Assembly: GCA_030649025.1 (NCBI GenBank)
Contig: JAUSGO010000016.1
Span: forward strand, 4,851-68,850
DNA length: 64,000 nucleotides
Source of the DNA: a bacterium
GTDB lineage: Bacteria > Patescibacteriota > Minisyncoccia > JAUYLV01
Direction: 5' to 3'
In this document: positions 13,615 through 34,275 of the stretch, in pieces
Position numbering within the stretch: position 1 is the first letter of the stretch
Layout: the number at the start of each line of letters is the position of its first letter
The notes under the pieces: model-generated
Databases searched by the model: none
Told to the model about the DNA's origin: nothing
What the model saw: only the letters and a program-made list of their open reading frames with translations
Position numbers and translations under genes: made by a program

Positions 13615-13618
13615 ATAA

Positions 13619-15614: not shown

Positions 15615-15641
15615 AAAAAACTCTTTTCGTCGAGAAAAGAG
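15615..15641 (-). terminator. Rho-independent terminator (CTCTTTT-loop-AAAAGAG plus U-run) after the 94-aa gene
   Basis: Minus-strand RNA reads CTCTTTTCTCGACGAAAAGAGTTTTTT. Confidence 0.5.
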
Positions 15642-15671
15642 GAGCGTAAAACTTAAGCTCACGCCGAATCA

Positions 15672-15956: not shown

Positions 15957-16028
15957 AAAAATATTTTGAACTTATTTTGGCGCGTATCGGTTATGAACGC
16001 CTTTGGGATAAATTCCGAACCGCTAAAA

Positions 16029-16628
16029 TTATGGCATGGCGTAAACCCGTATTCTGACGCTTGCGGCAATGTCACCCGAAGAAGATTTGAATGAGGTTGA
16101 TTGATTTTGGCCAGACGCCGTGCCGTATGTTTGCATGCCTTTTATTGGTGAAAAAAGGGCTTGCTCGATATCAACGGCGTAAGCGAAATTTTCCAGGTGA
16201 GCTATAAATTCCATAAGGTGCTCAAACGACCCCACCAGCGTCAGTTGAAAGACAAAAGATGATTTTATATTTGCTCCGGCGACCAACGAAGGCTCGCTTA
16301 TCAGTTGGATTTCCTTGTAAAGTTGGACTTCTCGTGCAAGATCTTCCATGGCCTCGATGAACGACACGAGATTCTCGGGATCAAGAAGCTGGGACCTGAT
16401 AAGCTGGATATTCGCGCTGATGCGTTCAAATTCTGATTTTGTTGAAGAAAATTTCTCAACAGCACTCTCAAATCCTTCTAGGCGATAAAATAGGTCCTGG
16501 TAGCGTTCGGGAAAGCTCTGTAGGTGCAAGTATAAAGGCAGTATGACCCCAAGGATCATGCCGGCACCGACTACCAGCCATAGCGTGCTAAAAAGTATGA
16601 CCTTATCTTTTCCGCTTAAATGCGTCAT
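16029..16628 (-). CDS. pilO: Type IV pilus assembly protein PilO-like
   Basis: 199 aa, N-terminal TM helix then coiled-coil region; positioned directly after pilN. Confidence 0.6.
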   Translation of the reverse strand: MTHLSGKDKVILFSTLWLVVGAGMILGVILPLYLHLQSFPERYQDLFYRLEGFESAVEKFSSTKSEFERISANIQLIRSQLLDPENLVSFIEAMEDLAREVQLYKEIQLISEPSLVAGANIKSSFVFQLTLVGSFEHLMEFIAHLENFAYAVDIEQALFSPIKGMQTYGTASGQNQSTSFKSSSGDIAASVRIRVYAMP

Positions 16629-16637
16629 GAATGCGGG

Positions 16638-17189
16638 CTACTGTTTGGCTTTGGAAATAATGGTCAGTGAAAACGTGAAGGGAATGTCCGTTTCGCGAAG
16701 AAGATTGGCAAGAGGAAAATTAATGTCACCGTACCCGGAAGATTCTTTTTGTATCTTATCCCTCAGGAGGAGCAATTGGCTTCTCGTTGGCGCCATGCCC
16801 GAAAAAACTATTTTCTGCGCCTGTATATCAACGCTAAGCGTTGTAAGCTGAATAACCGGGGGAATAAGGGCGATCAAATCTTTGATTGCGCCAAATGCCC
16901 GCAACTGCTCTTCTTGGATGCGATTCATGCGCTCAATATCATTCTTGAAAAGACGCAATTGTCCTTGAAATTTGGTGATCTCCTTTACTTCCGACACGTT
17001 CGACAGATTGGCAATGCGTTGGTTGAGTTCGCGGACCTTCCACTGTCCAAAAAGCTCTTGGCCGAACATGAGCAGTGAAAGGAATAAGAGTAATAAGAAA
17101 AACATCTCGCCAAAAAACATGACGCGCCAGTTCAGCTCTTCAAATTGAAGATTTTTTTTCGCCTGCTCCGGTAGAAGGTTTATAGACAT
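16638..17189 (-). CDS. pilN: Type IV pilus assembly protein PilN
   Basis: Conserved N-terminal INLLP motif (MSINLLPEQ), single TM helix, periplasmic domain; 183 aa. Confidence 0.75.
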   Translation of the reverse strand: MSINLLPEQAKKNLQFEELNWRVMFFGEMFFLLLLFLSLLMFGQELFGQWKVRELNQRIANLSNVSEVKEITKFQGQLRLFKNDIERMNRIQEEQLRAFGAIKDLIALIPPVIQLTTLSVDIQAQKIVFSGMAPTRSQLLLLRDKIQKESSGYGDINFPLANLLRETDIPFTFSLTIISKAKQ

Positions 17190-17198
17190 GAAATGGAA

Positions 17199-18212
17199 TT
17201 AGTGTGCGCCTCCAAATTCGTGATATCCCCGCAAGGCAAGCCCCAGCGCCGTTGTGTAGCCAAGGGAATCTTTAAAGGGAAGCATCGGAACTTCGCGAAG
17301 AGGGGGGCGTAAAATATTTACCCAGGGATTCGCCAATAGAACGGCGATCTCCGCTTCCTGCGCAAGAGCGGCGGTAAAACCCGGGGTTTGCACGAAATCT
17401 CCACAAACAAGAATTTGTTTTACCTCTACGTGCAATTGGTGCGCATGCGCCGAATGAGTCTGAAAAAAATCGATATACTGGCGCGCGTATCCGGCAAGCG
17501 CTTTTATTGTCACTCCCATAGAAGAACTTGTGATATCCTTTCCCGCGATGGAGACGGAAGCGGTAAAACGCACCATGGAACCGGCATAAATAATGAATGT
17601 CGTCCGATGGTGCGCCACGTCAATGATCAATAAAATTTCCTCGCCGCCCGTCGGGGGAACGATGCTTCTGGCGGAGGAGAGAGCATCGACTTCAAATGCA
17701 ACGGGCTTAAGGCCGACTTTTTCAAAAAGTGCGGCATAGCTATCCACCAAAACCTTTGGAGAGGCGGCCACAAGAATATCAAGGTGGTCATCGCCACTAT
17801 GCCGAGCAATCTCCCAATCATAATAGACCTCGGCCAGAGGTAGCGGGATGTTCGCCTCAATCTCCCAAATAATCGCCTGGGTGATTTCTTCGGAAGCCAT
17901 CTTGGGTAATTGTACGATACGGATGAAACTTTGGGGTTCCGGCAAAGACGCCATAACATACTTTGTGCGGATACTTCCTCCCTTGGCAGTCGTCAAAGCC
18001 TCTTGCAGGGCTGCTATGGTTTTTGGCACGTCGGTTATGGTGCCGTTCACCACCGCGCCTTCTTGAAGCGTCACGGCGGAGAAGCCTGCCAGCGTCAAAG
18101 AACCTCTTTCTTCTTTAAGATACGCGAGACGTATGCTGTGATCGGATATATCACATCCAAACGCCGACGGACGAACTTTAAATAATTTTTCGAAATGATT
18201 CAAAATTGCCAT
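17199..18212 (-). CDS. pilM: Type IV pilus assembly ATPase-fold protein PilM (actin-like)
   Basis: 337 aa; actin/FtsA-like fold motifs, ends ...TALGLALRG as in PilM; first gene of the pilMNO operon. Confidence 0.85.
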   Translation of the reverse strand: MAILNHFEKLFKVRPSAFGCDISDHSIRLAYLKEERGSLTLAGFSAVTLQEGAVVNGTITDVPKTIAALQEALTTAKGGSIRTKYVMASLPEPQSFIRIVQLPKMASEEITQAIIWEIEANIPLPLAEVYYDWEIARHSGDDHLDILVAASPKVLVDSYAALFEKVGLKPVAFEVDALSSARSIVPPTGGEEILLIIDVAHHRTTFIIYAGSMVRFTASVSIAGKDITSSSMGVTIKALAGYARQYIDFFQTHSAHAHQLHVEVKQILVCGDFVQTPGFTAALAQEAEIAVLLANPWVNILRPPLREVPMLPFKDSLGYTTALGLALRGYHEFGGAH

Positions 18213-22862: not shown

Positions 22863-24143
22863 CTACAGTTTAAGAAGCTTTCGAAATCCATTTTCCTCTT
22901 TTTGTTCAAATGGCCCCAACAGCACCCCGTTTAGACCGCTATTCTTGAAAATCTCTCCGGCTATACTTTGAACATCTGAGAAGCTGACCCTTTTGATACG
23001 TTCAATGATCTCATCCGGTTTACGAATCTGCTCCCGAACCGCTTCCTGCTCCCCAGCAAAAAACGCAAGCTCATCGGACGATTCCAGTCCCAGAAGAAGT
23101 TTTCCTTCCAGATAGTTTTTTGCCTTGCCGAGCTCATCTTCTCTCACGCCTTCATCGACTATTTTTTTATACTCCGCCAAAATAATACCCATCGCCTCCC
23201 CTGTCGCGTCTTTCTGCACGCCCACTTGCGTCACAAAATATCCCGAATCCGTGTAGAGATCGGATGTGGTTTGCACCGAGTAGGCAAGTCCGCGCTTTTC
23301 CCGTATCTCGGTGAATAGCCTGGAAGACGTCCCGCCGCCAAGAATGGTTGCAAGCACAGACAGCGCGTAGCGTTTTTCAGAGAACATGTCGCAGGAACGC
23401 ACGCCCACCATAAGATGCGTCTGTTCGGTCTGTTTGGAATGCAAGAGGAACTTCGGTTCGTCTTGCGTTTCTACAACCTTCGGCTTTGTTCCGGCTTGGC
23501 GATCGGAAAGGCCTCCAAAATATTTTTCCACGGTTTTTCCGATATTTTTTTCGTCAAATTTCCCCGATACGACCACGGTCGTGTTAGGGGCGGTGTAGTG
23601 CCCAGAAAGATATTCGGTAAAATCTTCCCTTCTCATGCGCGTGATATTCTCTTTTTCCCCGGCGATGGTCCAGCCGGCAGGTATATCACCGTACAAAAGC
23701 TTTTCCCACAGATCGCCGATATGCTGCATGGGCGTGTCCAGATGTATGTTGATCTCCTCAATAATAACACCACGCTCTTTTTCTATCTCTTCCTGTAAAA
23801 AAAGAGAGTGCTGGTAACTGTCGGAAAGCATGTCCAGTGCAAGTTCCAAATGTTCATCTGCGGCCTTCACGTAATAGCCGGTGTACTCCTTGCTCGTGAA
23901 CGCGTTATACTCGCTGCCGATGGAGTCCAGAAGCGTAGAGATGGTAAGCGCCGAGGGGCGCTTTTTCGTTCCCTTGAACATCATGTGCTCCAAAAAATGC
24001 GCTACGCCATTTGTTTCCTTGGTCTCATATTTAGACCCCGCGCCGACCATGACCAATGCGGTTACCGCCCGCGTGGTGTCCATGGGGATGGTAATAAGCC
24101 GAAGACCGTTTTTGAGAATAGCTTTGTTGAACATGATACTCAC
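22863..24143 (-). CDS. M16 family zinc peptidase (insulinase-like)
   Basis: Inverted zinc-binding motif HFLEHMMFKGT (HxxEH) near N-terminus; 426 aa; 4-nt overlap with glyQS. Confidence 0.9.
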   Translation of the reverse strand: MSIMFNKAILKNGLRLITIPMDTTRAVTALVMVGAGSKYETKETNGVAHFLEHMMFKGTKKRPSALTISTLLDSIGSEYNAFTSKEYTGYYVKAADEHLELALDMLSDSYQHSLFLQEEIEKERGVIIEEINIHLDTPMQHIGDLWEKLLYGDIPAGWTIAGEKENITRMRREDFTEYLSGHYTAPNTTVVVSGKFDEKNIGKTVEKYFGGLSDRQAGTKPKVVETQDEPKFLLHSKQTEQTHLMVGVRSCDMFSEKRYALSVLATILGGGTSSRLFTEIREKRGLAYSVQTTSDLYTDSGYFVTQVGVQKDATGEAMGIILAEYKKIVDEGVREDELGKAKNYLEGKLLLGLESSDELAFFAGEQEAVREQIRKPDEIIERIKRVSFSDVQSIAGEIFKNSGLNGVLLGPFEQKEENGFRKLLKL

Positions 24144-25501
24144 GCGAGCTTCTTTACGAGTAGTGCCTCAAGCTCCGCGATCTTCACCCGTTCCTGTTTC
24201 ATCGTATCCCGGTCGCGTAGAGTCACGGTTTTGTCCTCAAGCGACTGAAAATCGACGGTGATGCAAAAAGGAGTGCCTATTTCATCCTGCGCAAAGTATC
24301 GCTTTCCTACATTGCCACGTGGGTCCCAGGCCACCATGAAGTTTTTACGCAGACCGTCATACACAGACCGCGCAAGCTCCACTAGCTGGGGTTTATTTGC
24401 AAGAAGCGGGAAAACAGCGACTTTATACGGCGCAAGTTTCGGTGGGAGTTTCAGCCAAACACGTTTTTTATCTCCCTCGGAATCTTCTCGGTATGCGTCA
24501 ATCAAGGCCGCAAGCACCGAGCGGTCCACACCCCATGTCGGCTCGATCACATGCGGCCAAGAAGTCTGTCCCGTTTCCGCATCGCGATACGGCGCTTCTT
24601 TAAAATGATTCTTCAAATCAAAATCTCCCCGATAAGCAAGACCGTAAAGTTCGTCCCGTCCGAAAGGATAGTCATACTCAAAGTCTATGGTGCGCTTTGA
24701 ATAATGTGCGCGCTCACCATCCGGAACTTCAAGTTCGTGGATATGGCTATCCGCAAGCCCCAGATCATCCGTCATCCAGCTCCACATCTCTTTTTTCCAT
24801 GCTTCAAACCATTTCTTCCAATCTTTCTCTTCGACAAAGTATTCTATTTCCATCTGCTCAAATTCCCTGGTTCGGAAAATGAAATTTCCCGGCGTGATTT
24901 CATTGCGAAATGCTTTGCCGGTCTGTGCTATGCCGAACGGAAGGTGCCTGCGCGTCGTGTCCAACACCTGTTTAAAATCAACGAACATGGCCTGTGCCGT
25001 CTCGGGACGGAAAAAGACCTCGTTCGCTTTCTCTTCCGCGGGACCCAAAAATGTTTTGAGCATTAGGTTGAATTGGGTGGGGTCCGTGAAACTTTTCTCC
25101 GCATCGCAATTCGGACACTTTAACTCTCCCCGCTTCCGTTGGTGCAGGAGAAGATGGTCCACGCGAAATCGCGCGTGGCACTTTTTACATTCCACCAACG
25201 GGTCGGAGAAGTTCTGCAGATGCCCGCTTGCCTCCCACACTTTCGGATTCATGATAAGCGCCGCGTCAATGCCCACCATATCGTCTCGACGCTGAACAAA
25301 GCGTTTCCACCAAAGTTGCTTGATGTTATTTTTCAACTCTACCCCCATCGGGCCGTAATCCCAGGAATTAGCAAGTCCTCCATATATTTCACTTCCTGGA
25401 AAGACAAATCCCCGCCTTTTTGCAAGACTGGCGATCTTCGCCATGAGATCGTTTTGTTGTTCAGATTTTTTCATAGTCCAAGATATCCAAGCAGGAGACA
25501 A
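24140..25501 (-). CDS. glyQS: Glycyl-tRNA synthetase (class II, dimeric glyQS type)
   Basis: N-terminal IASLAKRRGFVFPGSEIYGGLANSWDYGPMGVELKNNI, class II motifs; 453 aa. Confidence 0.92.
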   Translation of the reverse strand: MSPAWISWTMKKSEQQNDLMAKIASLAKRRGFVFPGSEIYGGLANSWDYGPMGVELKNNIKQLWWKRFVQRRDDMVGIDAALIMNPKVWEASGHLQNFSDPLVECKKCHARFRVDHLLLHQRKRGELKCPNCDAEKSFTDPTQFNLMLKTFLGPAEEKANEVFFRPETAQAMFVDFKQVLDTTRRHLPFGIAQTGKAFRNEITPGNFIFRTREFEQMEIEYFVEEKDWKKWFEAWKKEMWSWMTDDLGLADSHIHELEVPDGERAHYSKRTIDFEYDYPFGRDELYGLAYRGDFDLKNHFKEAPYRDAETGQTSWPHVIEPTWGVDRSVLAALIDAYREDSEGDKKRVWLKLPPKLAPYKVAVFPLLANKPQLVELARSVYDGLRKNFMVAWDPRGNVGKRYFAQDEIGTPFCITVDFQSLEDKTVTLRDRDTMKQERVKIAELEALLVKKLA

Positions 25502-25505: not shown

Positions 25506-27236
25506 TTAAGGTATCACTATTCCAAAAGCTCTATCGTTGGCAATATCGTCAGACAACTGATCGGTTCGGATGGCCTGGATGTCGGCGGTAAGTTGTCGTC
25601 CCGTGAACGAGTCAACCGCACTTAGCAGGGAAGCGCGTATCAGCTCAACGGACTTGCCAACTTGAGTTGTGGAGGGAATGACCGAAACCTGAAAGACCGT
25701 CTCAAAAGCCGGCTGGGTAATGCCGGTATTCGCCGGAACTCTAGGGATGAACCATATCACCTCTCCCGTCGCTTCGTTAAACGAAGGCTTCGCATCGGTA
25801 TAACGGCTTACGGCTTCCCCGGTTCCCATAACGCCGGAGGGAAGCGTAGAACGCACTTCAACATTTTCAAGATCATTTGCCGGAACAGAGACGCGCCAAT
25901 GAATCGTATAACGGGTTTCCGTGTTTGCCTTTGGGGGCAGGGGCCCAAAATTCACAATTCCCGATGAATCGTCTTTATAATATGCCACTGCCTCAAGTTC
26001 CGCACGCGTCTCAATTTTTATCTCCAGTAACGAAGATGACGATATCTTGTTCAGCGCAAGATATGGAGGAACATTAATGCTTTCTATGGTTACAATAACG
26101 CGCGCCGTAAAATTCGTATCTTCGGCGCTCGAAATCGGAAAAGCATCTTTAAGAGCCACGCGTAATGTTAGAAAATATTTTTCCCCAGGGTTCAAGAACA
26201 GCAATTCCTTAACATTTTGGGGATTCCAGATAACGATGTTGCGCGTGCTGTCGAAAAAACCGCGTTCGGCGCTAAGCCCTTTGAAAGAAAACAAAGAGCT
26301 TGCAAGCTCCGCGCGCAATACCACGTCCTTTAAGGGAACTTCAGCATTATTCTGATACCCAATTTTCATCGTAAGCATCTCTCCTAGGTGCGCGATATGA
26401 TCGGGATGGTCCTGTAGTTCAATCGTCACGGAAAGCGGCGGTGGAGAGATGATCGTGTCGAAAAAACTTTCTTGATAAGGAGAAAACTTTCCGTCGCGCA
26501 CAAAACCGATCTCGGCTTTTACTTTTTTCGCGTCACCCTCTTCTCCGTCCAGTGTCCCGGAAACTGCGATCCGCCCCTTGCCAAGCACTGCCACTTCACC
26601 GATATCCCATACATCTTCTTCGTAAGTCGGCGCGGGTTCGGCACTTGAAAACAAAAAGCCGTCGGGATAGTGCATCCGTATGCGTGTCTCGGCAAAAGCG
26701 TGGGGGGCAAGATTCTCGTACGTAAGAAAATAAACGATGTGTTCTCCGGCCACCGCGCGCTGAGGAACCACGAGATTTAGAAAAAATGCGGCATCGGCAA
26801 TGCGGATAACCGCGTCTGTTTTTTTACGGAACACGACACCCCCGGCGCTTTTATACGTGAGTTCTGCGCTTGAACGCATCACGCTGTTTTTTGTTCCGAT
26901 GACTCGTGCGGTAAATGTATACGAATACTCTTTGTTGGGCTGCAGAGTCCCCAAGGATACGTTTTTGATAAGCTGATCCGGATTCTCAAGAGGAATCGAA
27001 TTTTCTGGATAACGGAAAAAGAGCTCCGCCTCCTGAAGCGGTATGCCCGTGCCATTTTTGTAAGAAACAAGAAATGACACCTCGTCTCCGCTGGTTATGG
27101 CTTCCGGGACCGAGAGACCCAAAACAACTTCTGCCGCTCCTCTTGTCCCCTCCTGGCGAAGCACATAAAAAAGGCCCGCGACAGCCCCGCCAAGAATAAG
27201 AACAAAAAGAATGATGAGATAGACGTATTTGGACAT
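25506..27236 (-). CDS. Hypothetical membrane-anchored protein with repeated beta-sandwich-like modules (DUF11/CARDB-like repeats)
   Basis: N-terminal TM helix; ~110-aa internal repeats ending in ...YTFTARVIG / ...NFTARVIVT. Confidence 0.45.
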   Translation of the reverse strand: MSKYVYLIILFVLILGGAVAGLFYVLRQEGTRGAAEVVLGLSVPEAITSGDEVSFLVSYKNGTGIPLQEAELFFRYPENSIPLENPDQLIKNVSLGTLQPNKEYSYTFTARVIGTKNSVMRSSAELTYKSAGGVVFRKKTDAVIRIADAAFFLNLVVPQRAVAGEHIVYFLTYENLAPHAFAETRIRMHYPDGFLFSSAEPAPTYEEDVWDIGEVAVLGKGRIAVSGTLDGEEGDAKKVKAEIGFVRDGKFSPYQESFFDTIISPPPLSVTIELQDHPDHIAHLGEMLTMKIGYQNNAEVPLKDVVLRAELASSLFSFKGLSAERGFFDSTRNIVIWNPQNVKELLFLNPGEKYFLTLRVALKDAFPISSAEDTNFTARVIVTIESINVPPYLALNKISSSSLLEIKIETRAELEAVAYYKDDSSGIVNFGPLPPKANTETRYTIHWRVSVPANDLENVEVRSTLPSGVMGTGEAVSRYTDAKPSFNEATGEVIWFIPRVPANTGITQPAFETVFQVSVIPSTTQVGKSVELIRASLLSAVDSFTGRQLTADIQAIRTDQLSDDIANDRAFGIVIP

Positions 27237-27274: not shown

Positions 27275-27862
27275 TCAATCTGATGGCACCGGCGCAGCAA
27301 GATGTTTCAGCCCCTTCGCCATAGCAACAAACTGCGGTCCTAAAATATCCGTGTGCAGAAGTAGTCCGTCGTACGTCTGCAAAGAAGACTTCTTACAACT
27401 ATCGGCTAAATAGCCAAGGCACTTGAGAAACCGCCGCGCGAATCTTTCAAGAATGTCATGGAAATCTGCATGGACGGCTTCTCTTGCTCCTGCGAGTTCC
27501 TCAAGCGTTGTAAAAAGCAACTCCCAAAGCGCCACATCAACCGCGTGTGGGTAGAGATACGTATCATACATATTCGCAACACCCTCTCCGAGGTATGCAA
27601 TCTCTGTATGCGTACGCAATGCCGAAAACGTCTTATGCGACATGGCGTCAATGAGCACGCCTCTTCCGTGGTTTTTCGCGATCATAAATTCGCCATGCGT
27701 CAAAAGTTCCAGATGCCCCCTGAGCTTCGATTTTTCATGCCGAACTCCGCGCGCAACCGCCTCAACCTTGCCGTTATGCGGCGTATAAAACGAAATTAGG
27801 CGATCCGCATCGCCCCAGTTTTCATGACCTATGACAATTCCTTCAAATCTCGATTCGTGCAT
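27275..27862 (-). CDS. recO: DNA repair protein RecO-like
   Basis: 195 aa; N-terminal OB-fold-like region (EGIVIGHENWGDADRLISFYT..GKVEAVARG); 20-nt overlap with ileS start. Confidence 0.65.
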   Translation of the reverse strand: MHESRFEGIVIGHENWGDADRLISFYTPHNGKVEAVARGVRHEKSKLRGHLELLTHGEFMIAKNHGRGVLIDAMSHKTFSALRTHTEIAYLGEGVANMYDTYLYPHAVDVALWELLFTTLEELAGAREAVHADFHDILERFARRFLKCLGYLADSCKKSSLQTYDGLLLHTDILGPQFVAMAKGLKHLAAPVPSD

Positions 27863-30800
27863 GCGAACTGGTATCGCGCATTATTGCAAGCTCCGATCCC
27901 AAATTGAATTTCACGGTAACGGTGGAGGTTTTATTTTTAACTGCAATGCCCAGGTCGGATTCAAGTATTTTCTTTTCCTTTTCATCGCCGACCACAAGCT
28001 CAATTCTTTCACCAGGTTTTAGTCCGGCTTTTCTGCGCGCATCCTGAATCTTTCGCATAAGTTCACGCGCGTCACCCTCCGCCTGTAATTCCGGGGTAAT
28101 AAGAGTGTCCAATTCTTCCTTCTCGCCAAATACTATTTCTTTTACATTCAGTTCTTCTTTCAAAATATCTAAGAATCCCGCATCAAGATTTTTTATGCCA
28201 TATACCGACAATAAATCTGTGGATGTAGTGTATCTGGTGAGCGATTGCCGAATTTTTATTTTAGCCTCGGCCCGTTTCTCAAGACCCTTTGCAACCACAA
28301 TACGAACAATCTCCATCTCTCTAATAAGATTCAGTTCATCTTCTTTTATTATTGGCCCGGAGGGGTAGTCGGCCAAATGCACGGATTCTTTGTTTCCTAG
28401 TTCTTGCCATATTGCATCGGCAACAAACGGAATAAAGGGCGCCGCAAGACATGAAACGGTTTCAAGAACCTTCCGGAATGCTGCCATGGACACTTTGTTC
28501 TCCTGTAGGCGTTCGCGGCTTCTTCGAACATACCATTGCGAGAGGTCGTCAACTACGAATCGCTCAATTGCGCGCGCAGCTCCTGTGACATCATAAGAAT
28601 CTAATTTTTCAAGCCGTACTACCTGAACGAGAATTCCTAACTTGGATAGAATCCATTTATCAAGCTTATGTTCAGCTACTTCCTCTTGCTCGTTGGCTTT
28701 CTGCCCCCTTTCATATGTCTTATAAAACACCGCGCAATTCCATAGCGTTCCCAAAAATCCGCGCATGCGCTCCTCGACATGCTTTTCGTCGAACAACTTG
28801 TAATCTCCGGGGTCATTTGCGGTAAAAAAATACCAGCGAAGGGCGTCCACGCCGTATTTGCTGATAATGTCCCAGGGGCTTACCACATTTCCTTTAGATT
28901 TGGACATCTTCTGTCCCTTGGCATCCAGCACGTGAGAGAGCGAAATGACGTTTTTATATGGCGCACCTTTGTCGAGCAGGGTGGAAACTGCAAGTAGGGT
29001 ATAGAACCAACCGCGTGTCTGATCTATGGCTTCCGAAATATATTCGGCGGGAAACGTCTTGCCGCTATCAATATCGTCTTTGTGCTCGAACGGATAATGT
29101 CCTTGCGCGAACGGCATGGACCCGGAGTCGAACCATACATCTATAAGTTCCTTGACGCGCGTCATTTTTTTTCCACACCTACAGCACAGATAAAACTCAT
29201 CGACATAAGGACGGTGAAGATTTACACTTCCTTCTTCGTCTCGGGGCATGGTGCCATAAAAAATCTTTCGAGGTTCGGCATATGTAGGGTATTCTTCCCG
29301 CCCGGTTGGCTGTGTGCCGACTTGCCTAAAATCGTCATCGCCAAACCCCGAGAGCGTACGTTCCAGAACCCACAAGGGGTCACCATGGCTTACGATAAGG
29401 ATGTTCTTGCCCTGATGTTTTTCTTCAAGCTCCATCCAGAATGCCATCATGCGCCCCCTAAGATCTGCCCACGTTTCTCCTCCCTCCACCGCTGTATCAA
29501 ACCGATTAAGGCTCCTTGACGCAAAGTACTCATGATACTCCGCTGCCGGCTTCCCACCGAAATCCCCGACCCGTATCTCGCGTAGCCGCTCGTCGAAAGA
29601 AACTTTAATGCCAAGTGCTTCGCCGATCGTCTCCGCGGTTTCTTTCGTGCGCAAAAGGTCGGAAGAGAAGATAAGATCAATGCCGGATTTTTTAAGTTTC
29701 TCGGCGGCAACAAATACCTGCCTCCTTCCTTCCTGGGTAAGATGGTTCTGGTCTTCCACTTTATCACTCATTCTATTTAAGCAATTGAATTCCGCTTCGC
29801 CGTGACGCGAAGCGTAATAGGTATTGCCGGACTTTTTATAGGCCCGCGCATCCAGTTCTTCAAGAGAGCCGATGCATTCCTCTTTTCCGCACGCTTCACA
29901 TTTCCAAATAGGCAGGGGTGTCCCCCAATACCGTTCGCGCGAGAAATTCCAGTCTTTTACTTCTTTCAGCCACTCTCCGAATCTCCCCTCTTTCATGTGT
30001 TCGGGAACCCACGTTATATAATTGTTATTCTCAATGAGTTTCTCGCGAACGCGCGACATCGAAATAAACCATGAGGGTTTTGCGTAATATAAAAGTGGTC
30101 TGTCACAGCGCCAGCAGAATGGGTAATCGTGAGCGCAAGCTTCTTCTTTAAATAAAATTTCCCGCTCTTTCAGGTCCGCGGTGATATCTTTATCCGCGTC
30201 CTTAACAAACTTCCCTTCTCCCGGAATGCCCAGGCCCTTTTTCACCGTGCCATCCAACTCCACGGTATGCAGGTTTGGCAAGTTATGTTCCTTCCCTAGA
30301 TTATAGTCATCTTCTCCATACATGGGCGCGATGTGGACCACGCCCGTACCATCGGCGGTGGAAACAAAATCAGCAGTATATATTTTATATGCGTTTTCGT
30401 TTTTTTCTTTGAGCGTTCCGTAAAGCGGTTCGTACTTCCATCCAATTAGTCCCTTCCCCGCACGAGTATCTTTAATGTCAAACGAACCTTCGGGCAGCGC
30501 CGAAAGTCGGTCTTTGGCCACATAGAAATGTTCTTTCGTCTCCTTTACATATACATGCGCGTACAGAATATTTTCTCCAACTGCGAGAGCTAAATTCGCC
30601 GGCAACGTCCAAGGCGTAGTAGTCCAAACGAGAATATACACGTTGCCTGTTTTTATTTTTTCGTCGTTCCCCTCAGTAACTTTAAACTTCACATACACCG
30701 AATTCTCGGAAATATTCTTATACCCCTGCGCAACTTCGTGGCTAGATAACCCTGTGCCGCACCGCGCGCAGTAGGGTACCACCTTATGTCCCTGGTATAA

Positions 30801-31310
30801 AAACCTGTTCCCTTTCTCGTCCCTCCGTTCCCATATCCGCCTGATAACCCACCAAAGCGTCTCCATATACTTTGGGTCGTAGGTGATGTAGGGACGGGCC
30901 ATGTCAAGCCAAAATCCCATGCGGTCGGTCAGCTTTTCCCATTCGTCTTTATAGGTCCACACCGACTCCTTACATTTTTTGTTGAATGCGGCAATGCCGT
31001 ATTGTTCAATGTCTTTTTTTGATTTCAGCCCCAGTTGTTTCTCCACTTCCAGCTCGACCGGGAGACCGTGCGTATCCCACCCGGCTTTTCGAGAAACAAA
31101 AAATCCCGCCATGGTTTTATAGCGGCAGATAATGTCCTTGAATGCGCGCGCAAGCACGTGATGGATACCGGGGCGGCCGTTTGCGGTTGGCGGCCCTTCA
31201 AAAAATACGAAGGGTTCGACGCCCTTGCGCCGCTCAAGACTTTTTTCAAACGTTTTATTCTCGCGCCATCGCGCAAGGACCCCTTCTTCAAGTTCCGGAA
31301 AACTTATCAT
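27843..31310 (-). CDS. ileS: Isoleucyl-tRNA synthetase (type 2-like) carrying an inserted histidine-phosphatase domain
   Basis: HIGH-region PPTANGRPGIHHVLARAFKD, KMSKSKGN, editing domain, Zn-binding CxxC pairs; 1155 aa. Confidence 0.95.
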   Translation of the reverse strand: MISFPELEEGVLARWRENKTFEKSLERRKGVEPFVFFEGPPTANGRPGIHHVLARAFKDIICRYKTMAGFFVSRKAGWDTHGLPVELEVEKQLGLKSKKDIEQYGIAAFNKKCKESVWTYKDEWEKLTDRMGFWLDMARPYITYDPKYMETLWWVIRRIWERRDEKGNRFLYQGHKVVPYCARCGTGLSSHEVAQGYKNISENSVYVKFKVTEGNDEKIKTGNVYILVWTTTPWTLPANLALAVGENILYAHVYVKETKEHFYVAKDRLSALPEGSFDIKDTRAGKGLIGWKYEPLYGTLKEKNENAYKIYTADFVSTADGTGVVHIAPMYGEDDYNLGKEHNLPNLHTVELDGTVKKGLGIPGEGKFVKDADKDITADLKEREILFKEEACAHDYPFCWRCDRPLLYYAKPSWFISMSRVREKLIENNNYITWVPEHMKEGRFGEWLKEVKDWNFSRERYWGTPLPIWKCEACGKEECIGSLEELDARAYKKSGNTYYASRHGEAEFNCLNRMSDKVEDQNHLTQEGRRQVFVAAEKLKKSGIDLIFSSDLLRTKETAETIGEALGIKVSFDERLREIRVGDFGGKPAAEYHEYFASRSLNRFDTAVEGGETWADLRGRMMAFWMELEEKHQGKNILIVSHGDPLWVLERTLSGFGDDDFRQVGTQPTGREEYPTYAEPRKIFYGTMPRDEEGSVNLHRPYVDEFYLCCRCGKKMTRVKELIDVWFDSGSMPFAQGHYPFEHKDDIDSGKTFPAEYISEAIDQTRGWFYTLLAVSTLLDKGAPYKNVISLSHVLDAKGQKMSKSKGNVVSPWDIISKYGVDALRWYFFTANDPGDYKLFDEKHVEERMRGFLGTLWNCAVFYKTYERGQKANEQEEVAEHKLDKWILSKLGILVQVVRLEKLDSYDVTGAARAIERFVVDDLSQWYVRRSRERLQENKVSMAAFRKVLETVSCLAAPFIPFVADAIWQELGNKESVHLADYPSGPIIKEDELNLIREMEIVRIVVAKGLEKRAEAKIKIRQSLTRYTTSTDLLSVYGIKNLDAGFLDILKEELNVKEIVFGEKEELDTLITPELQAEGDARELMRKIQDARRKAGLKPGERIELVVGDEKEKKILESDLGIAVKNKTSTVTVKFNLGSELAIMRDTSSHARIEI
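29226..29828 (-). other. In-frame insertion (~residues 495-695 of IleRS) encoding a histidine phosphatase (phosphoglycerate-mutase-like) domain
   Basis: Motifs RHGEAEFN (RHG), LTQEGRRQ, SSDLLRTKETAE, ILIVSHGDPL between WKCEACGKEEC and NLHRPYVDEFYLCCRCG, where IleRS normally has only a short linker. Confidence 0.6.
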
Positions 31311-31397: not shown

Positions 31398-31949
31398 CTA
31401 GTCCTCTAAAACGACGACCTCCTCCGCCGCGGGAGTGGAGTGTTCGTCTCTCGAGCGCCCTTCGGGCCGGATAAAAACTTCATCCTTCTCGAAGAACCCG
31501 ATAAAGTCGCTCGGATCTCTCCGAATGACTCTTTTGACATGGAAGAAGATCTTGCTGCTCGGGTTTGCCTTGGGAGCCGCAAAACCAAACCCTCGCTCCG
31601 GGTTGAAATGGACAACTTCTGCGGCGACAAATCCGCTCCCGCCGTTGAGGCTCTGGATTGCGTGCACCGTGTCCTTCCACCTCTTTGATTCGCGAACCGG
31701 AACCCGCTCGATATCGCGGGCAATCCTGCCCTCCGCGTCGAAGCTCACAACTTGCCCGTCCCGGAGACATTCCAGGCCAGGAGTTCGAAGTTCGTTCCGA
31801 AACAGCGAATAATCCTTGATGCCGTCGTGCTCGATTGTCCGGGCAAAGGGGAAAAACAACATATCCCCTTCTTCGTCCCGATACCAATCTTCTCTTCCTT
31901 TGTCCCACGCGGGTTTTCGTATCACAACTCCGAAAATTCTGTCGTTCAT
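31398..31949 (-). CDS. Cold-shock-domain protein (two CSD-like modules)
   Basis: C-terminal module GFVAAEVVHFNPERGFGFAAPKANPSSKIFFHVKRV resembles CspA (GxVKWFN..KGFGFI...G.D.F.H); N-terminal half looks like a degenerate second CSD. Confidence 0.55.
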   Translation of the reverse strand: MNDRIFGVVIRKPAWDKGREDWYRDEEGDMLFFPFARTIEHDGIKDYSLFRNELRTPGLECLRDGQVVSFDAEGRIARDIERVPVRESKRWKDTVHAIQSLNGGSGFVAAEVVHFNPERGFGFAAPKANPSSKIFFHVKRVIRRDPSDFIGFFEKDEVFIRPEGRSRDEHSTPAAEEVVVLED

Positions 31950-32117
31950 CGTTTTTCTCCTTGTTTTGGGCCCTTTTTTCAACGAACACGTATTGCATAA
32001 AAACGCTATCGGGCCTGATCTGACGATAGCGCAATGATAGCATTTCTCTTAGATTCTGTCAACCCCGTTAGAAGTAGGACGCTGACGCAAGCGTCTGCGA
32101 CTTCTAACGGGGTCAAG

Positions 32118-33734
32118 CTACATGTGGCTGGGGGCAGAGATACCCATAATTTTAAGAGTGCTCGTAAGAACGAACTTCGTCGCCTGTACAAGCATCAGGC
32201 GCGCCATGCTCACATTCCGGTCAACATCAATGACGCGGGTGGTGTCGTAGAATCTATGGAACACAGCGGCAAGCTGCATGGTGTATTGTGGCAGACGATG
32301 CACTGCGTATGTCTGCGCTATATCTTCCACCAGTTCTGGAAATTGTAAGAGTATTTTGATAAGAGAAAATTCTTCGGGCTTTTGTAAAAGCTTCAGGTCC
32401 TGTTTTGCCTTGCGGTCTCCCCGCTCTTGCGCCCTCTTCAAAATATTCGAGAGTCGTGCGTGCGCATACTGCACGTAGTAGACTGGATTTTTTTGAGAAT
32501 GTTCCTTGGCAACCGCCAGATCAAAATCCAAATGCGAGTTCGGCTCACGCATAAGGAAGAAGAACCGCGCCACATCCACGCCGACATCATCGAATAATTC
32601 GGAGAGCGTGACGAAATTCCCCGTGCGCTTTGACATACGCGTTTCCTTGCCGTCTTCCATGAGACGCACCAGCTGCATAAGAATTATGTGCACATCGGGT
32701 TTCCCGAACATCTGCATCGCCGCGTTCAGGCGCGCCACGGCACCATGGTGGTCGGCGCCCCAGATAGTGATGAGCTTGGTAAATCCCCGCTTCCACTTTT
32801 CCAGATGATACGCAATGTCTGAGGCAAGATACGTGTAATTTTTTTGGATACTTTTCACCAACACCCGGTCTTCGGTATCGCCGAATGCCGACGTTTTCAA
32901 CCAAATTGCACCTTCTTTTTCATACGTCAGACCCTTTTTCTCAAGCATTTTTAACGCCTTCTCAACAAGTCCCTTTCCGCGAATATCTCCGTCTTCCGAT
33001 ATCCACTTATCAAATGAGATTCCCGCCCGTTTTATGGGCGGCTTTATCTCGCGATCGAGAATGCGGTGCGCAACCTCTTTTCCCAGTTCCTCGGGATCCG
33101 CAATATATGTTTCCAGCAGTCTCTCGTATGTTTCCTTTGCGTATGATGCGATATAACCGCCCTGATAGTGCTGTTCCTGTTTTTCGGCAAGGCCTGCTGC
33201 GGCAAGAATGGATTCGCCGAGCGTCCGCATCTGGTTTCCCGCATCGTTGATGTAATATTCTTTCTCGGCCTTTGCGCCGGCAAACTGTAAAACATTATAC
33301 AGCGCATCTCCGTAAAATCCGCCCCGGCCATTTGCAAGCGTTAGGGGTCCGGTTGGGTTTGCGGATATGAATTCAATATTGACGTACTCTTTCAATTTCC
33401 CTCTGCCGAATTTCTCTTTCGCCTTCAAAATCTCTCCGACCGATCTTTGAAGAAATTTCTGTGATAGGAAAAAATTTACAAAGCCGGGCTTCGCGGTCTC
33501 AATTCTTTCGATGTAATCGCCGAGTTCTTTATCCTTTCCCAGATTTTCTTTGACAAGTTCGGCGATCTCCATGGGATTTTTTTTGAGCCATTTGGTAGCA
33601 AGCAGCGACGCGTTTGTCGCATAGTCTCCGTGTTCCGGCTTCTCTGTTTTTTCCACGGAAAAAGAAACATCTCCCGCGCCGAGGCTTTTAAGCGATCTTT
33701 GTATTGCGGCTCTTATGGTGTCTCGCGGTGTCAT
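32118..33734 (-). CDS. argS: Arginyl-tRNA synthetase (start placed at internal Met MTPRDTIRAA)
   Basis: ANPTGPLTLANGRGG (HIGH-region variant typical of ArgRS) and MSKRTGNFVTL (KMSK); N-terminal Arg-tRNA-binding domain. Confidence 0.9.
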   Translation of the reverse strand: MTPRDTIRAAIQRSLKSLGAGDVSFSVEKTEKPEHGDYATNASLLATKWLKKNPMEIAELVKENLGKDKELGDYIERIETAKPGFVNFFLSQKFLQRSVGEILKAKEKFGRGKLKEYVNIEFISANPTGPLTLANGRGGFYGDALYNVLQFAGAKAEKEYYINDAGNQMRTLGESILAAAGLAEKQEQHYQGGYIASYAKETYERLLETYIADPEELGKEVAHRILDREIKPPIKRAGISFDKWISEDGDIRGKGLVEKALKMLEKKGLTYEKEGAIWLKTSAFGDTEDRVLVKSIQKNYTYLASDIAYHLEKWKRGFTKLITIWGADHHGAVARLNAAMQMFGKPDVHIILMQLVRLMEDGKETRMSKRTGNFVTLSELFDDVGVDVARFFFLMREPNSHLDFDLAVAKEHSQKNPVYYVQYAHARLSNILKRAQERGDRKAKQDLKLLQKPEEFSLIKILLQFPELVEDIAQTYAVHRLPQYTMQLAAVFHRFYDTTRVIDVDRNVSMARLMLVQATKFVLTSTLKIMGISAPSHM

Positions 33735-33755
33735 GGAGCCATGGTAGCAGAAAAA

Positions 33756-33785
33756 TTGCCATACTGAAAGAGAGGCGTGTATACT
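33756..33785 (+). promoter_or_regulatory. Sigma70-like promoter TTGCCA -18 nt- TATACT for gene 33802-34275 (divergent from argS)
   Basis: Hexamers match consensus 5/6 and 5/6; followed by GGAGG RBS and ATG at 33802. Confidence 0.4.
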
Positions 33786-33801
33786 GACCGTGGAGGCGTT
33801 T

Positions 33802-34275
33802 ATGTCAAAAAAATGGAGTATTGCGTACCTGTATCTGCCAATAGCCATCATCGTTCTTCTCGATATCGCGCTCACCTTCGACGGCAATCTTCCTCACTTC
33901 CTTGACAGAACAAAAATCATCAGAGAGATCTCTCCCGTAGGCAGAGCGTTTATCTCGGTGGGTCCGGCAACGTTCATTTTTGCATCCATGCTCTACGTTG
34001 CGGCCATTTTTATGTTGCTCTGGCGCTTATCGGAGTATAAAAAGCTTGCGCTTTTTTTCTCGTTAATATTCGCGCATGGAAACGCGGGACTTGGATGGCT
34101 GGTAAGCGGCTTAAGGGAGTCGTTGTGCGTGAACGCACATGGAACGACAAGCTGTACTACCGGACACGACACAGCTCTTTGGATATTTTCCATTCTTGCA
34201 GCATTGCTCTTCGGACTTGTGTGCGCCTGGGCCATCAAGGCGTATTACGCCACGCAGTCTTCGCTTGATGACTAG
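33802..34275 (+). CDS. Hypothetical membrane protein (4-5 predicted TM helices)
   Basis: Start at ATG 33802 with GGAGG 5 nt upstream (the ORF track begins at an upstream GTG); hydrophobic segments; followed by a terminator. Confidence 0.5.
   Translation: MSKKWSIAYLYLPIAIIVLLDIALTFDGNLPHFLDRTKIIREISPVGRAFISVGPATFIFASMLYVAAIFMLLWRLSEYKKLALFFSLIFAHGNAGLGWLVSGLRESLCVNAHGTTSCTTGHDTALWIFSILAALLFGLVCAWAIKAYYATQSSLDD

What the first reader, a model, noticed from the sequence alone, without database searches (positions are those of the whole stretch)
29226..29828. Histidine-phosphatase (PGAM-like) domain inserted in-frame inside isoleucyl-tRNA synthetase
Seen in sequence:
- The ileS ORF (27843-31310, minus strand) is continuous.
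- Between the zinc-binding segment WKCEACGKEEC and the conserved NLHRPYVDEFYLCCRCG-KMTRV..DVWFDSGSMPF block it carries ~200 extra residues.
- Those residues contain all four hallmark motifs of the histidine phosphatase superfamily (branch 1: phosphoglycerate mutase / fructose-2,6-bisphosphatase / CobC): RHGEAEFN, LTQEGRRQ, SSDLLRTKETAE and ILIVSHGDPL.

Established knowledge: IleRS normally has only a short linker at this position.

Inference: the insertion is real (single long ORF, no frameshift) and adds a second catalytic activity or a regulatory module to an aaRS. I know of no described IleRS with such a domain.
Basis: partly seen in the sequence, partly recalled or inferred. Interest (0 to 1): 0.8.

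Follow-up and report, generated by a model that had tools for sequence, protein, structure and literature searches.

The report
Phosphatase domain nested inside isoleucyl-tRNA synthetase
The isoleucyl-tRNA synthetase of this candidate-phyla-radiation bacterium carries a complete, apparently active histidine-phosphatase domain in one of its surface loops. The domain is a neighbouring operon gene that this bacterial group has repeatedly built into its tRNA-charging enzymes, and I found no paper describing it.

Summary
The ORF at 27843-31310 (-) is one continuous 1155-aa type-2 IleRS. About 200 residues (aa ~491-697) replace a 2-20 residue linker between the two halves of the CP3 zinc knuckle. 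They match His_Phos_1 (PF00300) at E = 1.8e-37.

It is not an assembly artefact. All 120 closest homologues, from independent Patescibacteria assemblies, share the architecture. R502, H503, R554 and H642 are invariant, and the catalytic acid is E or D.

The domain resembles the short phosphatases (PhoE, PspA, GpgP). It is not a phosphoglycerate mutase.

In relatives whose IleRS lacks the insert, a ~190-aa free-standing copy sits in a tight argS-phosphatase-ileS cluster with the same flanking genes as the window. The same subfamily also occurs:
- at two other IleRS loops
- in tandem
- inside ValRS
- at the ArgRS C-terminus
- on Sua5/TsaC

Every copy keeps the catalytic residues.

My best reading is a bifunctional enzyme carrying an active phosphomonoesterase that is functionally tied to class I aminoacylation. 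The substrate is unknown. The main rival is fusion for co-expression only. My searches of the open-access paper library found no description. I rate it a new variant of a known kind (aaRS with an added catalytic domain), interest about 0.65.

The parts
27843..31310 (-). ileS: one ORF of 1155 aa encoding a type-2 (eukaryote-like) isoleucyl-tRNA synthetase with a nested phosphatase domain
   Evidence: ORF. (TIGR00392, 845 bits against a cut-off of 621). (tRNA-synt_1 split in two, Anticodon_1, DUF5915). (AF2 pLDDT 92.4, pTM 0.86). (Foldseek best matches are IleRS2 8C8U/8C8V and 1ILE).
29838..31310 (-). IleRS N-terminal part (aa 1-491): first half of the Rossmann fold, the CP1 editing domain (WTTTPWT motif), CP2, and the first half of the CP3 zinc knuckle
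   Evidence: aligns to 1ILE residues 9-482. (invariant T230-T232, H326, D335). CP3 is defined in PMC7191050.
31158..31169 (-). Class I signature motif in its non-canonical form, GIHH (aa 48-51), in place of HxGH
   Evidence: PGIHHV in the window and its subclade. PMC10485003 links G/AXHH in IleRS2 to mupirocin hyper-resistance.
29889..29900 (-). First CxxC pair of the CP3 zinc knuckle (C471, C474), just upstream of the insert
   Evidence: tgt gaa gcg tgc. (120/120 conserved). They are equivalent to Tth C461/C464 in the alignment. The zinc motif in Tth CP3 is described in PMC7191050.
29220..29837 (-). The whole inserted block (aa 492-697): a short N-linker, the phosphatase domain, and a ~28-aa C-linker that returns to CP3
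   Evidence: boundaries against 1ILE and against insert-free Patescibacteria IleRS. (insert length 202-238 aa in 120 homologues).
29304..29816 (-). Histidine phosphatase (branch 1) domain, aa 499-669
   Evidence: PF00300, 129 bits, E = 1.8e-37. (domain model pLDDT 93.9). (Foldseek: GpgP 6S2Q/4PZ9, PspA 4IJ5 with TM 0.86, PhoE 1H2E).
29802..29807 (-). R502-H503 of the RHG motif. By homology, H503 is the predicted phospho-accepting nucleophile.
   Evidence: cgt cac. (120/120 each). (conserved in every context).
29385..29387 (-). H642, the second catalytic histidine (in the VSHG motif). The other pocket residues are R554 (nt 29649-29651) and E578 (nt 29577-29579).
   Evidence: H642 120/120, R554 120/120, E578 is E in 86 and D in 34.
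29175..29183 (-). Second cysteine pair of the CP3 zinc knuckle (C710, C712), just downstream of the insert
   Evidence: 120/120. Equivalent to Tth C502/C504 in the alignment.
27846..29219 (-). IleRS C-terminal part (aa 698-1155): second half of the Rossmann fold with KMSKS (aa 801-805, nt 28896-28910), the anticodon-binding helical domain and the DUF5915 C-terminal domain
32118..33887 (-). argS (ArgRS, 589 aa, no phosphatase domain). It is the upstream member of the conserved argS-(phosphatase)-ileS cluster.
   Evidence: Synteny with L008, L009, L012, L014, L016 and L018.
27275..27862 (-). recO, the downstream syntenic neighbour. It overlaps the end of ileS by 20 nt. It is followed by a DUF11 protein (25506-27236), a class II aaRS (24140-25501) and an M16 peptidase (22863-24143), as in the relatives.

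Best explanation
The ~200-aa block is a complete, folded, catalytically competent branch-1 histidine phosphatase of the short PhoE/PspA/GpgP type. It is not a mutase. It is nested in the loop of the zinc-binding CP3 subdomain of an otherwise intact type-2 IleRS.

Origin. It is the same gene that, in related Patescibacteria, is a free-standing ~190-aa protein encoded between argS and ileS, separated from them by only a few nucleotides. In the window's lineage that gene now lies inside ileS. This gives one polypeptide with two active sites.

Chemistry, inferred from homology. R502, R554, H642 and N509 hold a phosphoryl group. H503 attacks it to form a phospho-histidine intermediate. E578 protonates the leaving group, and water then releases phosphate.

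Function, inferred. The same subfamily has been captured at three IleRS loops, in tandem copies, in ValRS, on ArgRS and on Sua5/TsaC. All of these are adenylate-forming enzymes of the tRNA pathway, and every copy keeps the catalytic residues. I therefore infer that the phosphatase works together with class I aminoacylation, probably as a physical partner of the synthetase. Its likely job is to remove a phosphorylated small molecule, or a terminal phosphate on tRNA, that would otherwise hinder charging.

The specificity-determining cap regions are poorly conserved. This suggests either that little beyond the phosphoryl group is recognised, or that the synthetase supplies the specificity.

What is shown: the domain's identity, its boundaries, its conservation, its origin in the operon and its recurrent capture. 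What is inferred: catalysis, coupling to aminoacylation and the substrate.
For: Identity and integrity:
- PF00300 at E = 1.8e-37.
- IleRS equivalog model passed. KMSKS and editing-domain motifs are conserved.
- AF2 full-length model has pLDDT 92.4 and pTM 0.86, with the insert at pLDDT above 90.
- The domain model's nearest structures are the phosphatases GpgP, PspA and PhoE at TM 0.81-0.86; by sequence, PhoE 1EBB scores E = 2e-15.

Selection:
- R502, H503, R554 and H642 are invariant in 120 homologues that are about 50% identical.
- The pattern R-H-(mostly N/Q)-R-(E/D)-H is kept in all 159 domain copies examined, in every context (apart from a few N-terminally truncated sequences), including tandem and multiple copies.

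Origin:
- All 9 free-standing homologues I looked up lie next to an ileS-type class I synthetase gene.
- In 8 of them the phosphatase is upstream on the same strand; the spacing runs from an 11-nt overlap to a 10-nt gap in seven and is 118 nt in the eighth.
- 7 have argS upstream, 6 of them within 5 nt.
- Where the IleRS is complete in these loci it is 931-962 aa and has no insert.
- The flanks (recO, a DUF11/CLIPPER-like protein, a class II aaRS, an M16 peptidase) are the same as in the window (compared).
- The window's own argS-ileS spacer has no phosphatase remnant, and the window holds no second copy.

Recurrent capture:
- Site B (after aa ~736-747) and site C (after aa ~867) in IleRS, tandem copies at site A, ValRS with one or four copies, an ArgRS C-terminal fusion, and Sua5 fusions in 4 clusters.
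- A 100%-bootstrap IleRS clade contains A+C, B+C, A+A and B-only arrangements. Insert-free IleRS are nested among insert-bearing ones at 88-95% bootstrap.
- The ArgRS fusion keeps the phosphatase even where ileS has left the locus.

Cap variability: entropy is about 3.0-3.2 bits in aa 510-523 and 583-610, against 1.4-1.8 in the pocket strands.
Against: - No enzymatic data exist, and no substrate can be named from sequence.
- Sua5 in these bacteria is fused to many unrelated small enzymes: the Ogt DNA-binding domain, TruB, a 2H phosphodiesterase, Nudix, GNAT and a glycosylase. Fusion is therefore common in this group and need not signal shared chemistry.
- The ArgRS fusion can be explained by simple loss of a stop codon between adjacent genes.
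- Domain pI is variable (5.3 in the window). Free and fused copies do not differ (p = 0.36), so there is no consistent RNA-binding signature.
- The NJ tree is coarse.
Confidence: 0.55

Rival explanations
1. Fusion of convenience. The phosphatase is an ordinary housekeeping metabolite phosphatase whose job has nothing to do with aminoacylation. In these streamlined genomes it was merged into permissive surface loops of neighbouring, highly expressed essential genes. This guarantees co-expression and saves regulatory sequence. The two activities are independent.
For: - Patescibacteria fuse many unrelated small enzymes to translation proteins; Sua5 has at least seven different partners.
- The gene already sat between argS and ileS, so fusions to those two need only local rearrangement.
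- All three IleRS insertion sites are surface loops or low-confidence linkers: CP3 differs in topology among the three IleRS compared in PMC7191050, and pLDDT dips at aa 868-880.
- The cap regions are variable, as expected of a broad-specificity phosphatase.
- JGI annotates the free forms as 'broad specificity phosphatase PhoE'.
Against: - Among the best 150 cluster representatives, every multi-domain partner is a class I aaRS or Sua5. No metabolic enzyme appears.
- ValRS is not part of the argS-ileS cluster in the one locus seen, yet it carries one to four copies.
- Insertion inside a protein at three different loops, with retention of two to four catalytically intact copies, is harder to explain by co-expression alone.
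- Tight gene order kept across deep Parcubacteria lineages usually marks physical partners (general knowledge, not tested here).
Confidence: 0.3
2. It is the cell's cofactor-dependent phosphoglycerate mutase or another glycolytic enzyme (the literal 'PGAM' reading), riding on IleRS.
For: The best NCBIfam hit by score is dPGM_arch (88-93 bits). Superfamily membership is certain.
Against: - It fails the family cut-offs: dPGM_arch 88-93 against 225, and pgm_1 38.5 against 81.7.
- The domain is about 176 aa, whereas the mutase chains matched are about 230-250 aa. Mutases rank below the short phosphatases in the fold search and align with lower TM normalised to their own length.
- A genome with the ValRS fusion encodes enolase and two cofactor-independent PGM genes on the same contig.
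Confidence: 0.04
3. It is a non-catalytic structural or regulatory module. One version is a sensor that binds a phosphorylated metabolite and tunes IleRS. Another is a docking surface.
For: - pTM 0.86 suggests a defined position on the enzyme.
- CP3-region insertions modulate activity in related synthetases (my own knowledge of the LeuRS leucine-specific domain, not tested here).
Against: Dead domains normally lose catalytic residues. Here R, H, R, H and the acid are kept in all 159 copies (apart from a few N-terminally truncated sequences), across contexts and at 30-50% identity. Free-standing copies of the same subfamily are abundant.
Confidence: 0.06
4. It is an assembly or gene-calling artefact (a chimeric contig, or two genes joined by an error).
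For: GC is slightly higher inside the insert. The genome is a metagenome-assembled one.
Against: - An identical protein is in NCBI on an 87-kb contig, and 119 further homologues from independent projects have the same architecture, with the insert in the same loop.
- IleRS sequence continues in frame on both sides, and the zinc ligands are split exactly around the insert.
Confidence: 0.01

Closest known systems
Short broad-specificity histidine phosphatases of branch 1: PhoE/YhfR of Geobacillus stearothermophilus (1EBB, 1H2E), phosphoserine phosphatase PspA of Hydrogenobacter thermophilus (4IJ5), glucosyl-3-phosphoglycerate phosphatase Rv2419c (4PZ9, 6S2Q)
   Same: The fold is the same (predicted, TM 0.81-0.86). 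The catalytic set is the same: RHG, a second Arg, Glu and a second His. Like them, it is shorter than the mutase chains matched (about 230-250 aa). Sequence identity is 27-31%.
   Different: It is about 25-35 residues shorter still, with reduced and poorly conserved cap regions. It fails their NCBIfam family models. It is nested in, or encoded next to, a tRNA synthetase rather than being a free metabolic enzyme. Its substrate is unknown.
Type-2 (eukaryote-like) bacterial IleRS: T. thermophilus 1ILE, Priestia megaterium IleRS2 8C8U
   Same: Every IleRS domain is present: the Rossmann fold, the CP1 editing domain, CP2, the zinc-binding CP3, the anticodon-binding domain and the DUF5915 C-terminus. 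The Foldseek alignment to 1ILE is 39% identical. The signature motif is the G/AXHH variant described in PMC10485003.
   Different: The CP3 zinc-knuckle loop carries about 200 extra residues that form an independent enzyme domain.
IleRS with an N-acetyltransferase domain (NCBIfam NF040702, ileS_w_GNAT)
   Same: It is a precedent for an IleRS that carries an additional small-molecule enzyme domain. I know of it only from the model's name.
   Different: The added domain is a different fold and chemistry (GNAT). The window protein scores 309 bits against a cut-off of 1999, so it is not a member. I did not examine where the GNAT domain sits.
Bifunctional RNase H / acid phosphatase (Rv2228c type, NCBIfam PRK07238)
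   Same: A CobC/PhoE-like histidine phosphatase is fused to a nucleic-acid enzyme. It is the second-best NCBIfam hit for the insert (83-87 bits).
   Different: The score is far below the cut-off of 326. That protein is an end-to-end fusion with RNase HI, not a domain nested in a synthetase.
Other aaRS with appended enzyme-like domains, for example the Mycoplasma penetrans MetRS with N-terminal ancillary domains (PMC13215547, abstract seen)
   Same: The general theme is the same: gene fusion adds a foreign domain to a synthetase in a reduced genome.
   Different: Those are terminal additions. Here a catalytic domain is inserted inside the catalytic body, recurrently and at several sites.

Membership tests
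Histidine phosphatase superfamily, branch 1 (Pfam PF00300) | Match to the family profile above the curated gathering score | tested here: met
   129.3 bits against 21.7 within the whole protein; 134.2 bits for the insert alone.
Histidine phosphatase superfamily, branch 1 (Pfam PF00300) | Catalytic core: RHG histidine nucleophile, two arginines, a second histidine and an acidic proton donor | tested here: met
   R502, H503, R554, H642 and E578 are present. The first four are invariant in 120 homologues, and the acid is E in 86 and D in 34. They are kept in all contexts.
Histidine phosphatase superfamily, branch 1 (Pfam PF00300) | Alpha/beta fold shared with solved members | tested here: met
   The predicted model (pLDDT 93.9) matches 4IJ5, 1H2E and 6S2Q at TM 0.81-0.86 and E down to 9e-16. 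This rests on prediction only.
Histidine phosphatase superfamily, branch 1 (Pfam PF00300) | Phosphoryl transfer through a phospho-histidine intermediate | not testable with these tools
   This needs an enzyme assay and an H503 mutant.
Cofactor-dependent phosphoglycerate mutase (dPGM; TIGR01258, NF038349) | Score above the family cut-off | tested here: not met
   pgm_1 scores 38.5 against 81.7. dPGM_arch scores 88-93 against 225.
Cofactor-dependent phosphoglycerate mutase (dPGM; TIGR01258, NF038349) | Length comparable to solved mutases, which carry sequence beyond the shared core | tested here: not met
   The domain is about 176 aa, against 230-250 aa for the mutase chains. TM normalised to the mutases is only 0.54-0.63. 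My recollection is that the difference is a mutase-specific insertion and C-terminal tail; I did not map these elements individually.
Alpha-ribazole phosphatase CobC (TIGR03162) | Score above the family cut-off | tested here: not met
   75-80 bits against 162.9.
Phosphoserine phosphatase PspA (NF045917) | Score above the family cut-off | tested here: not met
   70-75 bits against 350.
Isoleucine--tRNA ligase (TIGR00392), type 2 | Score above the equivalog cut-off | tested here: met
   845 bits against 621.4, despite the insert.
Isoleucine--tRNA ligase (TIGR00392), type 2 | Class I signature motifs (HxGH or its IleRS2 variant G/AXHH, and KMSKS) and the CP1 editing motifs | tested here: met
   GIHH at aa 48-51, KMSKS at 801-805 and WTTTPWT at 229-235, all conserved. 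G/AXHH is functional in IleRS2 according to PMC10485003.
Isoleucine--tRNA ligase (TIGR00392), type 2 | Type-2 C-terminal domain and closest similarity to IleRS2 structures | tested here: met
   DUF5915 at aa 1067-1138. The best PDB matches are 1ILE and 8C8U/V/W.
Isoleucine--tRNA ligase (TIGR00392), type 2 | Charges tRNA-Ile with isoleucine | not testable with these tools
   This needs an aminoacylation assay. No tRNA-Ile gene lies in the window.
ileS_w_GNAT (NF040702); MupA/MupB (NF000257, NF000258) | Score above the exception-model cut-off | tested here: not met
   309 against 1999; 782 and 760 against 1900.

The most novel reading that the evidence does not exclude
The phosphatase is a quality-control or defence module built into class I synthetases. 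One version: it removes a 3'- or 2'-terminal phosphate from damaged tRNA, so that the bound synthetase can recharge it. That would be end-healing, and it fits with Sua5 also being found fused to a 2H cyclic phosphodiesterase. The other version: it destroys a phosphorylated or phosphoramidate aminoacyl-adenylate mimic that poisons the enzyme. That would be immunity, in the same protein that already carries the mupirocin hyper-resistance GxHH motif. Either version would be a previously unknown activity, physically wired to aminoacylation across a large part of the candidate phyla radiation.
Probability: 0.15. Interest if true: 0.85.

Novelty: new variant of a known kind. Interest (0 to 1): 0.65.

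Why it matters
Aminoacyl-tRNA synthetases are among the most conserved enzymes known, and insertions inside their catalytic body are rare. The known examples, such as the editing domain, turned out to be functionally important.

Here a second, apparently active enzyme has been inserted into IleRS across a large branch of the candidate phyla radiation. The same phosphatase has been captured again and again by IleRS, ValRS, ArgRS and Sua5. Where it is free-standing, it is encoded in a tight cluster with argS and ileS. That is the classic signature of a functional partnership that nobody has characterised.

If the partnership is real, it points to a phosphate-removal step linked to tRNA charging that model organisms either lack or perform differently. 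It would also assign a role to a very common 'hypothetical/PhoE-like' protein of these uncultivated bacteria.

If the fusion is only for co-expression, it is still a clear, datable example of a neighbouring gene becoming a nested domain. It would be useful as a lineage marker and as evidence that the CP3 loop tolerates 200-400 residue insertions.

Tried and rejected
1. The genome-contig scan with a single-protein query found only an insert-free type-2 IleRS in an unrelated MAG labelled Clostridia. I should have used an alignment.
None returned a description of the fusion. They did yield the CP3 and GxHH background.
3. The pyrophosphatase idea (all partners release PPi) could not be tested. The literature search on Patescibacteria and inorganic pyrophosphatase was irrelevant. 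I keep this as a minor sub-hypothesis only.
4. The RNA-binding signature test failed. Domain pI is variable, and free and fused copies do not differ (p = 0.36).
5. I searched the window's argS-ileS spacer for a decayed phosphatase gene and found none. The 194-aa ORF there is unrelated.
6. I could not measure the geometry of the two active sites, because model coordinates are not exposed to the scripting environment.
7. Domain-level similarity did not separate copies by context, except for the two tandem positions. I could not decide whether sites B and C arose from site A or from free genes.
8. The mutase reading is rejected.
9. The chimera reading is rejected.
Full report
**1. The observation**

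The minus-strand ORF at 27843-31310 is uninterrupted and encodes 1155 aa.

Pfam places His_Phos_1 (PF00300) at aa 499-669, with 129 bits and E = 1.8e-37 against a gathering score of 21.7. It splits tRNA-synt_1 around that domain. The whole protein still passes the IleRS equivalog model TIGR00392 (845 bits against 621).

Against T. thermophilus IleRS (1ILE), query 492 aligns with Tth 482 and query 698 with Tth 490, so about 205 residues stand where Thermus has about 7. Against insert-free IleRS from related Patescibacteria, the extra block is aa ~491-694.

The block sits between C471/C474 and C710/C712. These four cysteines are invariant in 120 homologues and align with the Thermus CP3 zinc ligands. 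[quoted passage not shown]

GC is slightly higher in the insert (0.53-0.55 against 0.46-0.49), but there is no discontinuity.

**2. It is not an artefact and not a one-off**

The identical protein is in NCBI on an 87-kb contig. The next 119 hits carry both PF00133 and PF00300. They are 48-60% identical and 1070-1209 aa long. They come from NCBI, JGI, ENA and Logan, and where named they belong to Nealson-, Wildermuth-, Uhr- and Pacebacteria or the 'Patescibacteria group'. Insert length in these is 202-238 aa.

**3. The IleRS is intact**

KMSKS (aa 801-805), the editing-domain motif WTTTPWT and other catalytic residues are conserved. The full-length AlphaFold2 model has mean pLDDT 92.4 and pTM 0.86, with the insert folded as an alpha/beta domain at pLDDT above 90. 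Its best structural matches are IleRS2 from P. megaterium and 1ILE.

The class I signature is GIHH rather than HxGH. PMC10485003 shows that G/AXHH is a functional IleRS2 variant that confers mupirocin hyper-resistance.

**4. What kind of histidine phosphatase it is**

R502, H503, R554 and H642 are invariant in the 120 homologues. The acid is E in 86 and D in 34, and N509 is mostly N or Q.

By sequence, the nearest solved proteins are PhoE (1EBB/1H2E, E = 2e-15), PspA (4IJ5) and GpgP (4PZ9). A model of the domain alone (pLDDT 93.9) matches the same proteins at TM 0.81-0.86. The mutases rank lower and are 50-70 residues longer.

None of the specific family models is passed: dPGM_arch 88-93 against 225, pgm_1 38.5 against 81.7, CobC 75-80 against 163, PspA 70-75 against 350. 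So it belongs to the superfamily and resembles the short phosphatases, but it belongs to no characterised family.

The two cap segments (aa 510-523 and 583-610) are the least conserved parts (about 3.0-3.2 bits of entropy). The pocket strands are the most conserved (1.4-1.8 bits).

**5. Where it came from**

I searched the insert alone against 1.84 billion cluster representatives. This gave 18,024 hits at E up to 0.001 and 2,266 at E up to 1e-10. Among the best 150 are many ~190-aa free-standing proteins that are as similar to the window's insert (40-50% identity) as other IleRS inserts are. A profile search shows that these free forms are abundant in Parcubacteria and Patescibacteria. They are annotated as hypothetical, 'histidine phosphatase family protein' or 'broad specificity phosphatase PhoE'.

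I looked up nine of them.
- All nine lie next to an ileS-type class I synthetase gene.
- In eight the phosphatase is upstream on the same strand. In seven of these the two genes lie between an 11-nt overlap and a 10-nt gap; in the eighth the gap is 118 nt.
- Seven have argS upstream, six of them within 5 nt.
- Where the loci are complete, the IleRS is 931-962 aa without an insert. The flanking order is argS, phosphatase, ileS, (a small ORF), recO, a DUF11/CLIPPER-like protein, a class II aaRS.

The window has the same order on its minus strand:
- argS at 32118-33887
- ileS at 27843-31310
- recO at 27275-27862
- the DUF11 protein at 25506-27236
- the class II aaRS at 24140-25501
- the M16 peptidase at 22863-24143

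However, it has no phosphatase gene or remnant between argS and ileS, and no second copy anywhere in the 64 kb. Adding ~190 aa to a 931-962 aa IleRS gives roughly the observed 1155 aa. The simplest reading is that the middle gene of the cluster now resides inside ileS.

**6. Recurrent capture**

I mapped the best 150 representatives onto the window protein and checked them with Pfam and NCBIfam. The same subfamily occurs in these arrangements:

| Arrangement | Examples |
|---|---|
| Site A, the window's site (the majority) | many |
| Two diverged tandem copies at site A | P0139, P0158, P0193, P0222, P0242 |
| Site B, after aa ~736-747 | P0257; P0157 has A+B |
| Sites B and C (after aa ~867), with nothing at A | P0179 (six near-identical members, one on a 1.06-Mb contig), P0226 |
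| Sites A and C | P0151, P0200 |
| Inside ValRS | P0276 (948 bits against 704); P0121 has four copies in a row |
| At the C-terminus of ArgRS | P0177 |
| At the C-terminus of Sua5/TsaC | P0270 and three further clusters |

Every copy in every context keeps the R-H-(mostly N/Q)-R-(E/D)-H pattern, apart from a few N-terminally truncated sequences.

I built a neighbour-joining tree of IleRS cores, with the phosphatase domains removed, and ran 100 bootstraps.
- The arrangements A+C, B+C, A+A and B-only fall in one clade with 100% support.
- The insert-free IleRS are nested among site-A IleRS. L009 has 95% support. L012 and L016 group with P0202 and P0218 at 88%.

The arrangement is therefore evolutionarily fluid. 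The direction of individual events is not resolved.

In L018, the ArgRS fusion is followed directly by recO and the usual neighbours, with no ileS at that locus.

**7. How it most likely works**

The chemistry is inferred from homology. The phosphoryl group is held by R502, R554, H642 and N509. It is transferred to H503, with E578 as the general acid, and then hydrolysed.

The biological role is an inference from association.
- All partners found are adenylate-forming enzymes of the tRNA pathway.
- The free gene sits in a tight cluster with two of them.
- Multiple catalytically intact copies are retained.

I therefore favour a phosphatase that works with class I aminoacylation (confidence 0.55). 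Candidate substrates are a phosphorylated small molecule that interferes with charging, or a terminal phosphate on tRNA. PPi is a low-probability option that I could not test.

**8. Rivals**

- *Co-expression only (0.30).* This is the serious rival. Sua5 in these bacteria is fused to at least seven unrelated enzymes. Fusion is evidently cheap in this group, and the argS and ileS fusions need only local events.
- *Mutase (0.04).* It fails the family cut-offs, lacks the extra length of mutases, and a genome with the ValRS fusion has two iPGM genes plus enolase on the same contig.
- *Non-catalytic module (0.06).* This is unlikely given the residue conservation.
- *Assembly artefact (0.01).* This is excluded.

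**9. Comparison with what is known, and novelty**

The domain belongs to the histidine phosphatase superfamily and the host is a type-2 IleRS. Both memberships were tested and met.

The combination is not covered by any NCBIfam model. The nearest, ileS_w_GNAT, is a different fusion and is not matched. The combination does not appear in the papers I could search, including two recent studies of IleRS evolution.

Sequence databases already hold hundreds of such proteins under generic names. The novelty therefore lies in recognising and interpreting the architecture, not in new sequence. I rate it a new variant of a known kind: a synthetase with an added catalytic domain.

**10. Limits**

- No enzymology is available.
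- I have no model coordinates.
- There is no whole-genome census.
- The tree is coarse.
- Only nine free-standing loci were inspected.
- For three loci (L005/L006, L007, L008) the downstream synthetase is truncated by the contig end and is identified only as tRNA-synt_1.

Noticed in passing
window 31158-31169 (-), IleRS aa 48-51: The class I signature motif is GIHH instead of HxGH. The whole subclade around the window protein has G-x-H-H, while a sister group of phosphatase-bearing IleRS has HYGH. PMC10485003 shows that G/AXHH in IleRS2 gives up to a 1000-fold increase in mupirocin resistance. This enzyme is therefore predicted to be hyper-resistant.
   Followed up: partly
window 31398-31982 (-): A 194-aa ORF (TTG start) occupies the argS-ileS spacer, exactly where relatives encode the ~190-aa free phosphatase. 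It has no similarity to the phosphatase, only a sub-threshold cold-shock-domain hit (24.4 bits against 27). Its GC is higher (0.56-0.59) than its surroundings. It may be a replacement gene or a spurious ORF.
   Followed up: partly
L004 2682-5609 (-): Next to a free-standing phosphatase and argS, the IleRS gene appears as two consecutive ORFs. One is an N-terminal part with the editing domain (4371-5609, cut by the contig end). The other is a 554-aa C-terminal part (2682-4346). They are 24 nt apart. This is either a split IleRS or a sequencing error.
   Followed up: no
proteins P0397-P0509: Sua5/TsaC of Patescibacteria is a hub for fusions. The commonest partner is the Ogt-type DNA_binding_1 domain (PF01035). 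Others are TruB, a 2H cyclic phosphodiesterase (PF07823/PF13563), Nudix, GNAT, methylpurine glycosylase and the histidine phosphatase.
   Followed up: no
protein P0218 (alignment): Some phosphatase-bearing IleRS have lost all four CP3 zinc cysteines that flank the insert (for example 'WKHPESGAVH' and 'VYDD-RGDRL'). The zinc knuckle is therefore dispensable once the domain is in place.
   Followed up: no
window 24140-25501 (-): A class II aaRS (tRNA-synt_2b core plus HGTP_anticodon) has a weak zinc-ribbon match at aa 103-133, N-terminal to the catalytic core (26.8 bits against a cut-off of 30.3). Its amino-acid specificity was not determined.
   Followed up: no
window 27843-27862: The end of ileS and the start of recO overlap by 20 nt on the same strand, which suggests translational coupling. 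In relatives a small ORF or a ~580-aa gene lies between them.
   Followed up: no
L020 1817-4951: The genome with the ValRS-phosphatase fusion has two adjacent cofactor-independent phosphoglycerate mutase genes directly after enolase.
   Followed up: no
window 7301-18212 (-): This is a type IV pilus region: an N-methylation-motif pilin, the prepilin peptidase A24, PilM, and a 1040-aa fn3-containing protein. It is typical of episymbiotic CPR bacteria.
   Followed up: no
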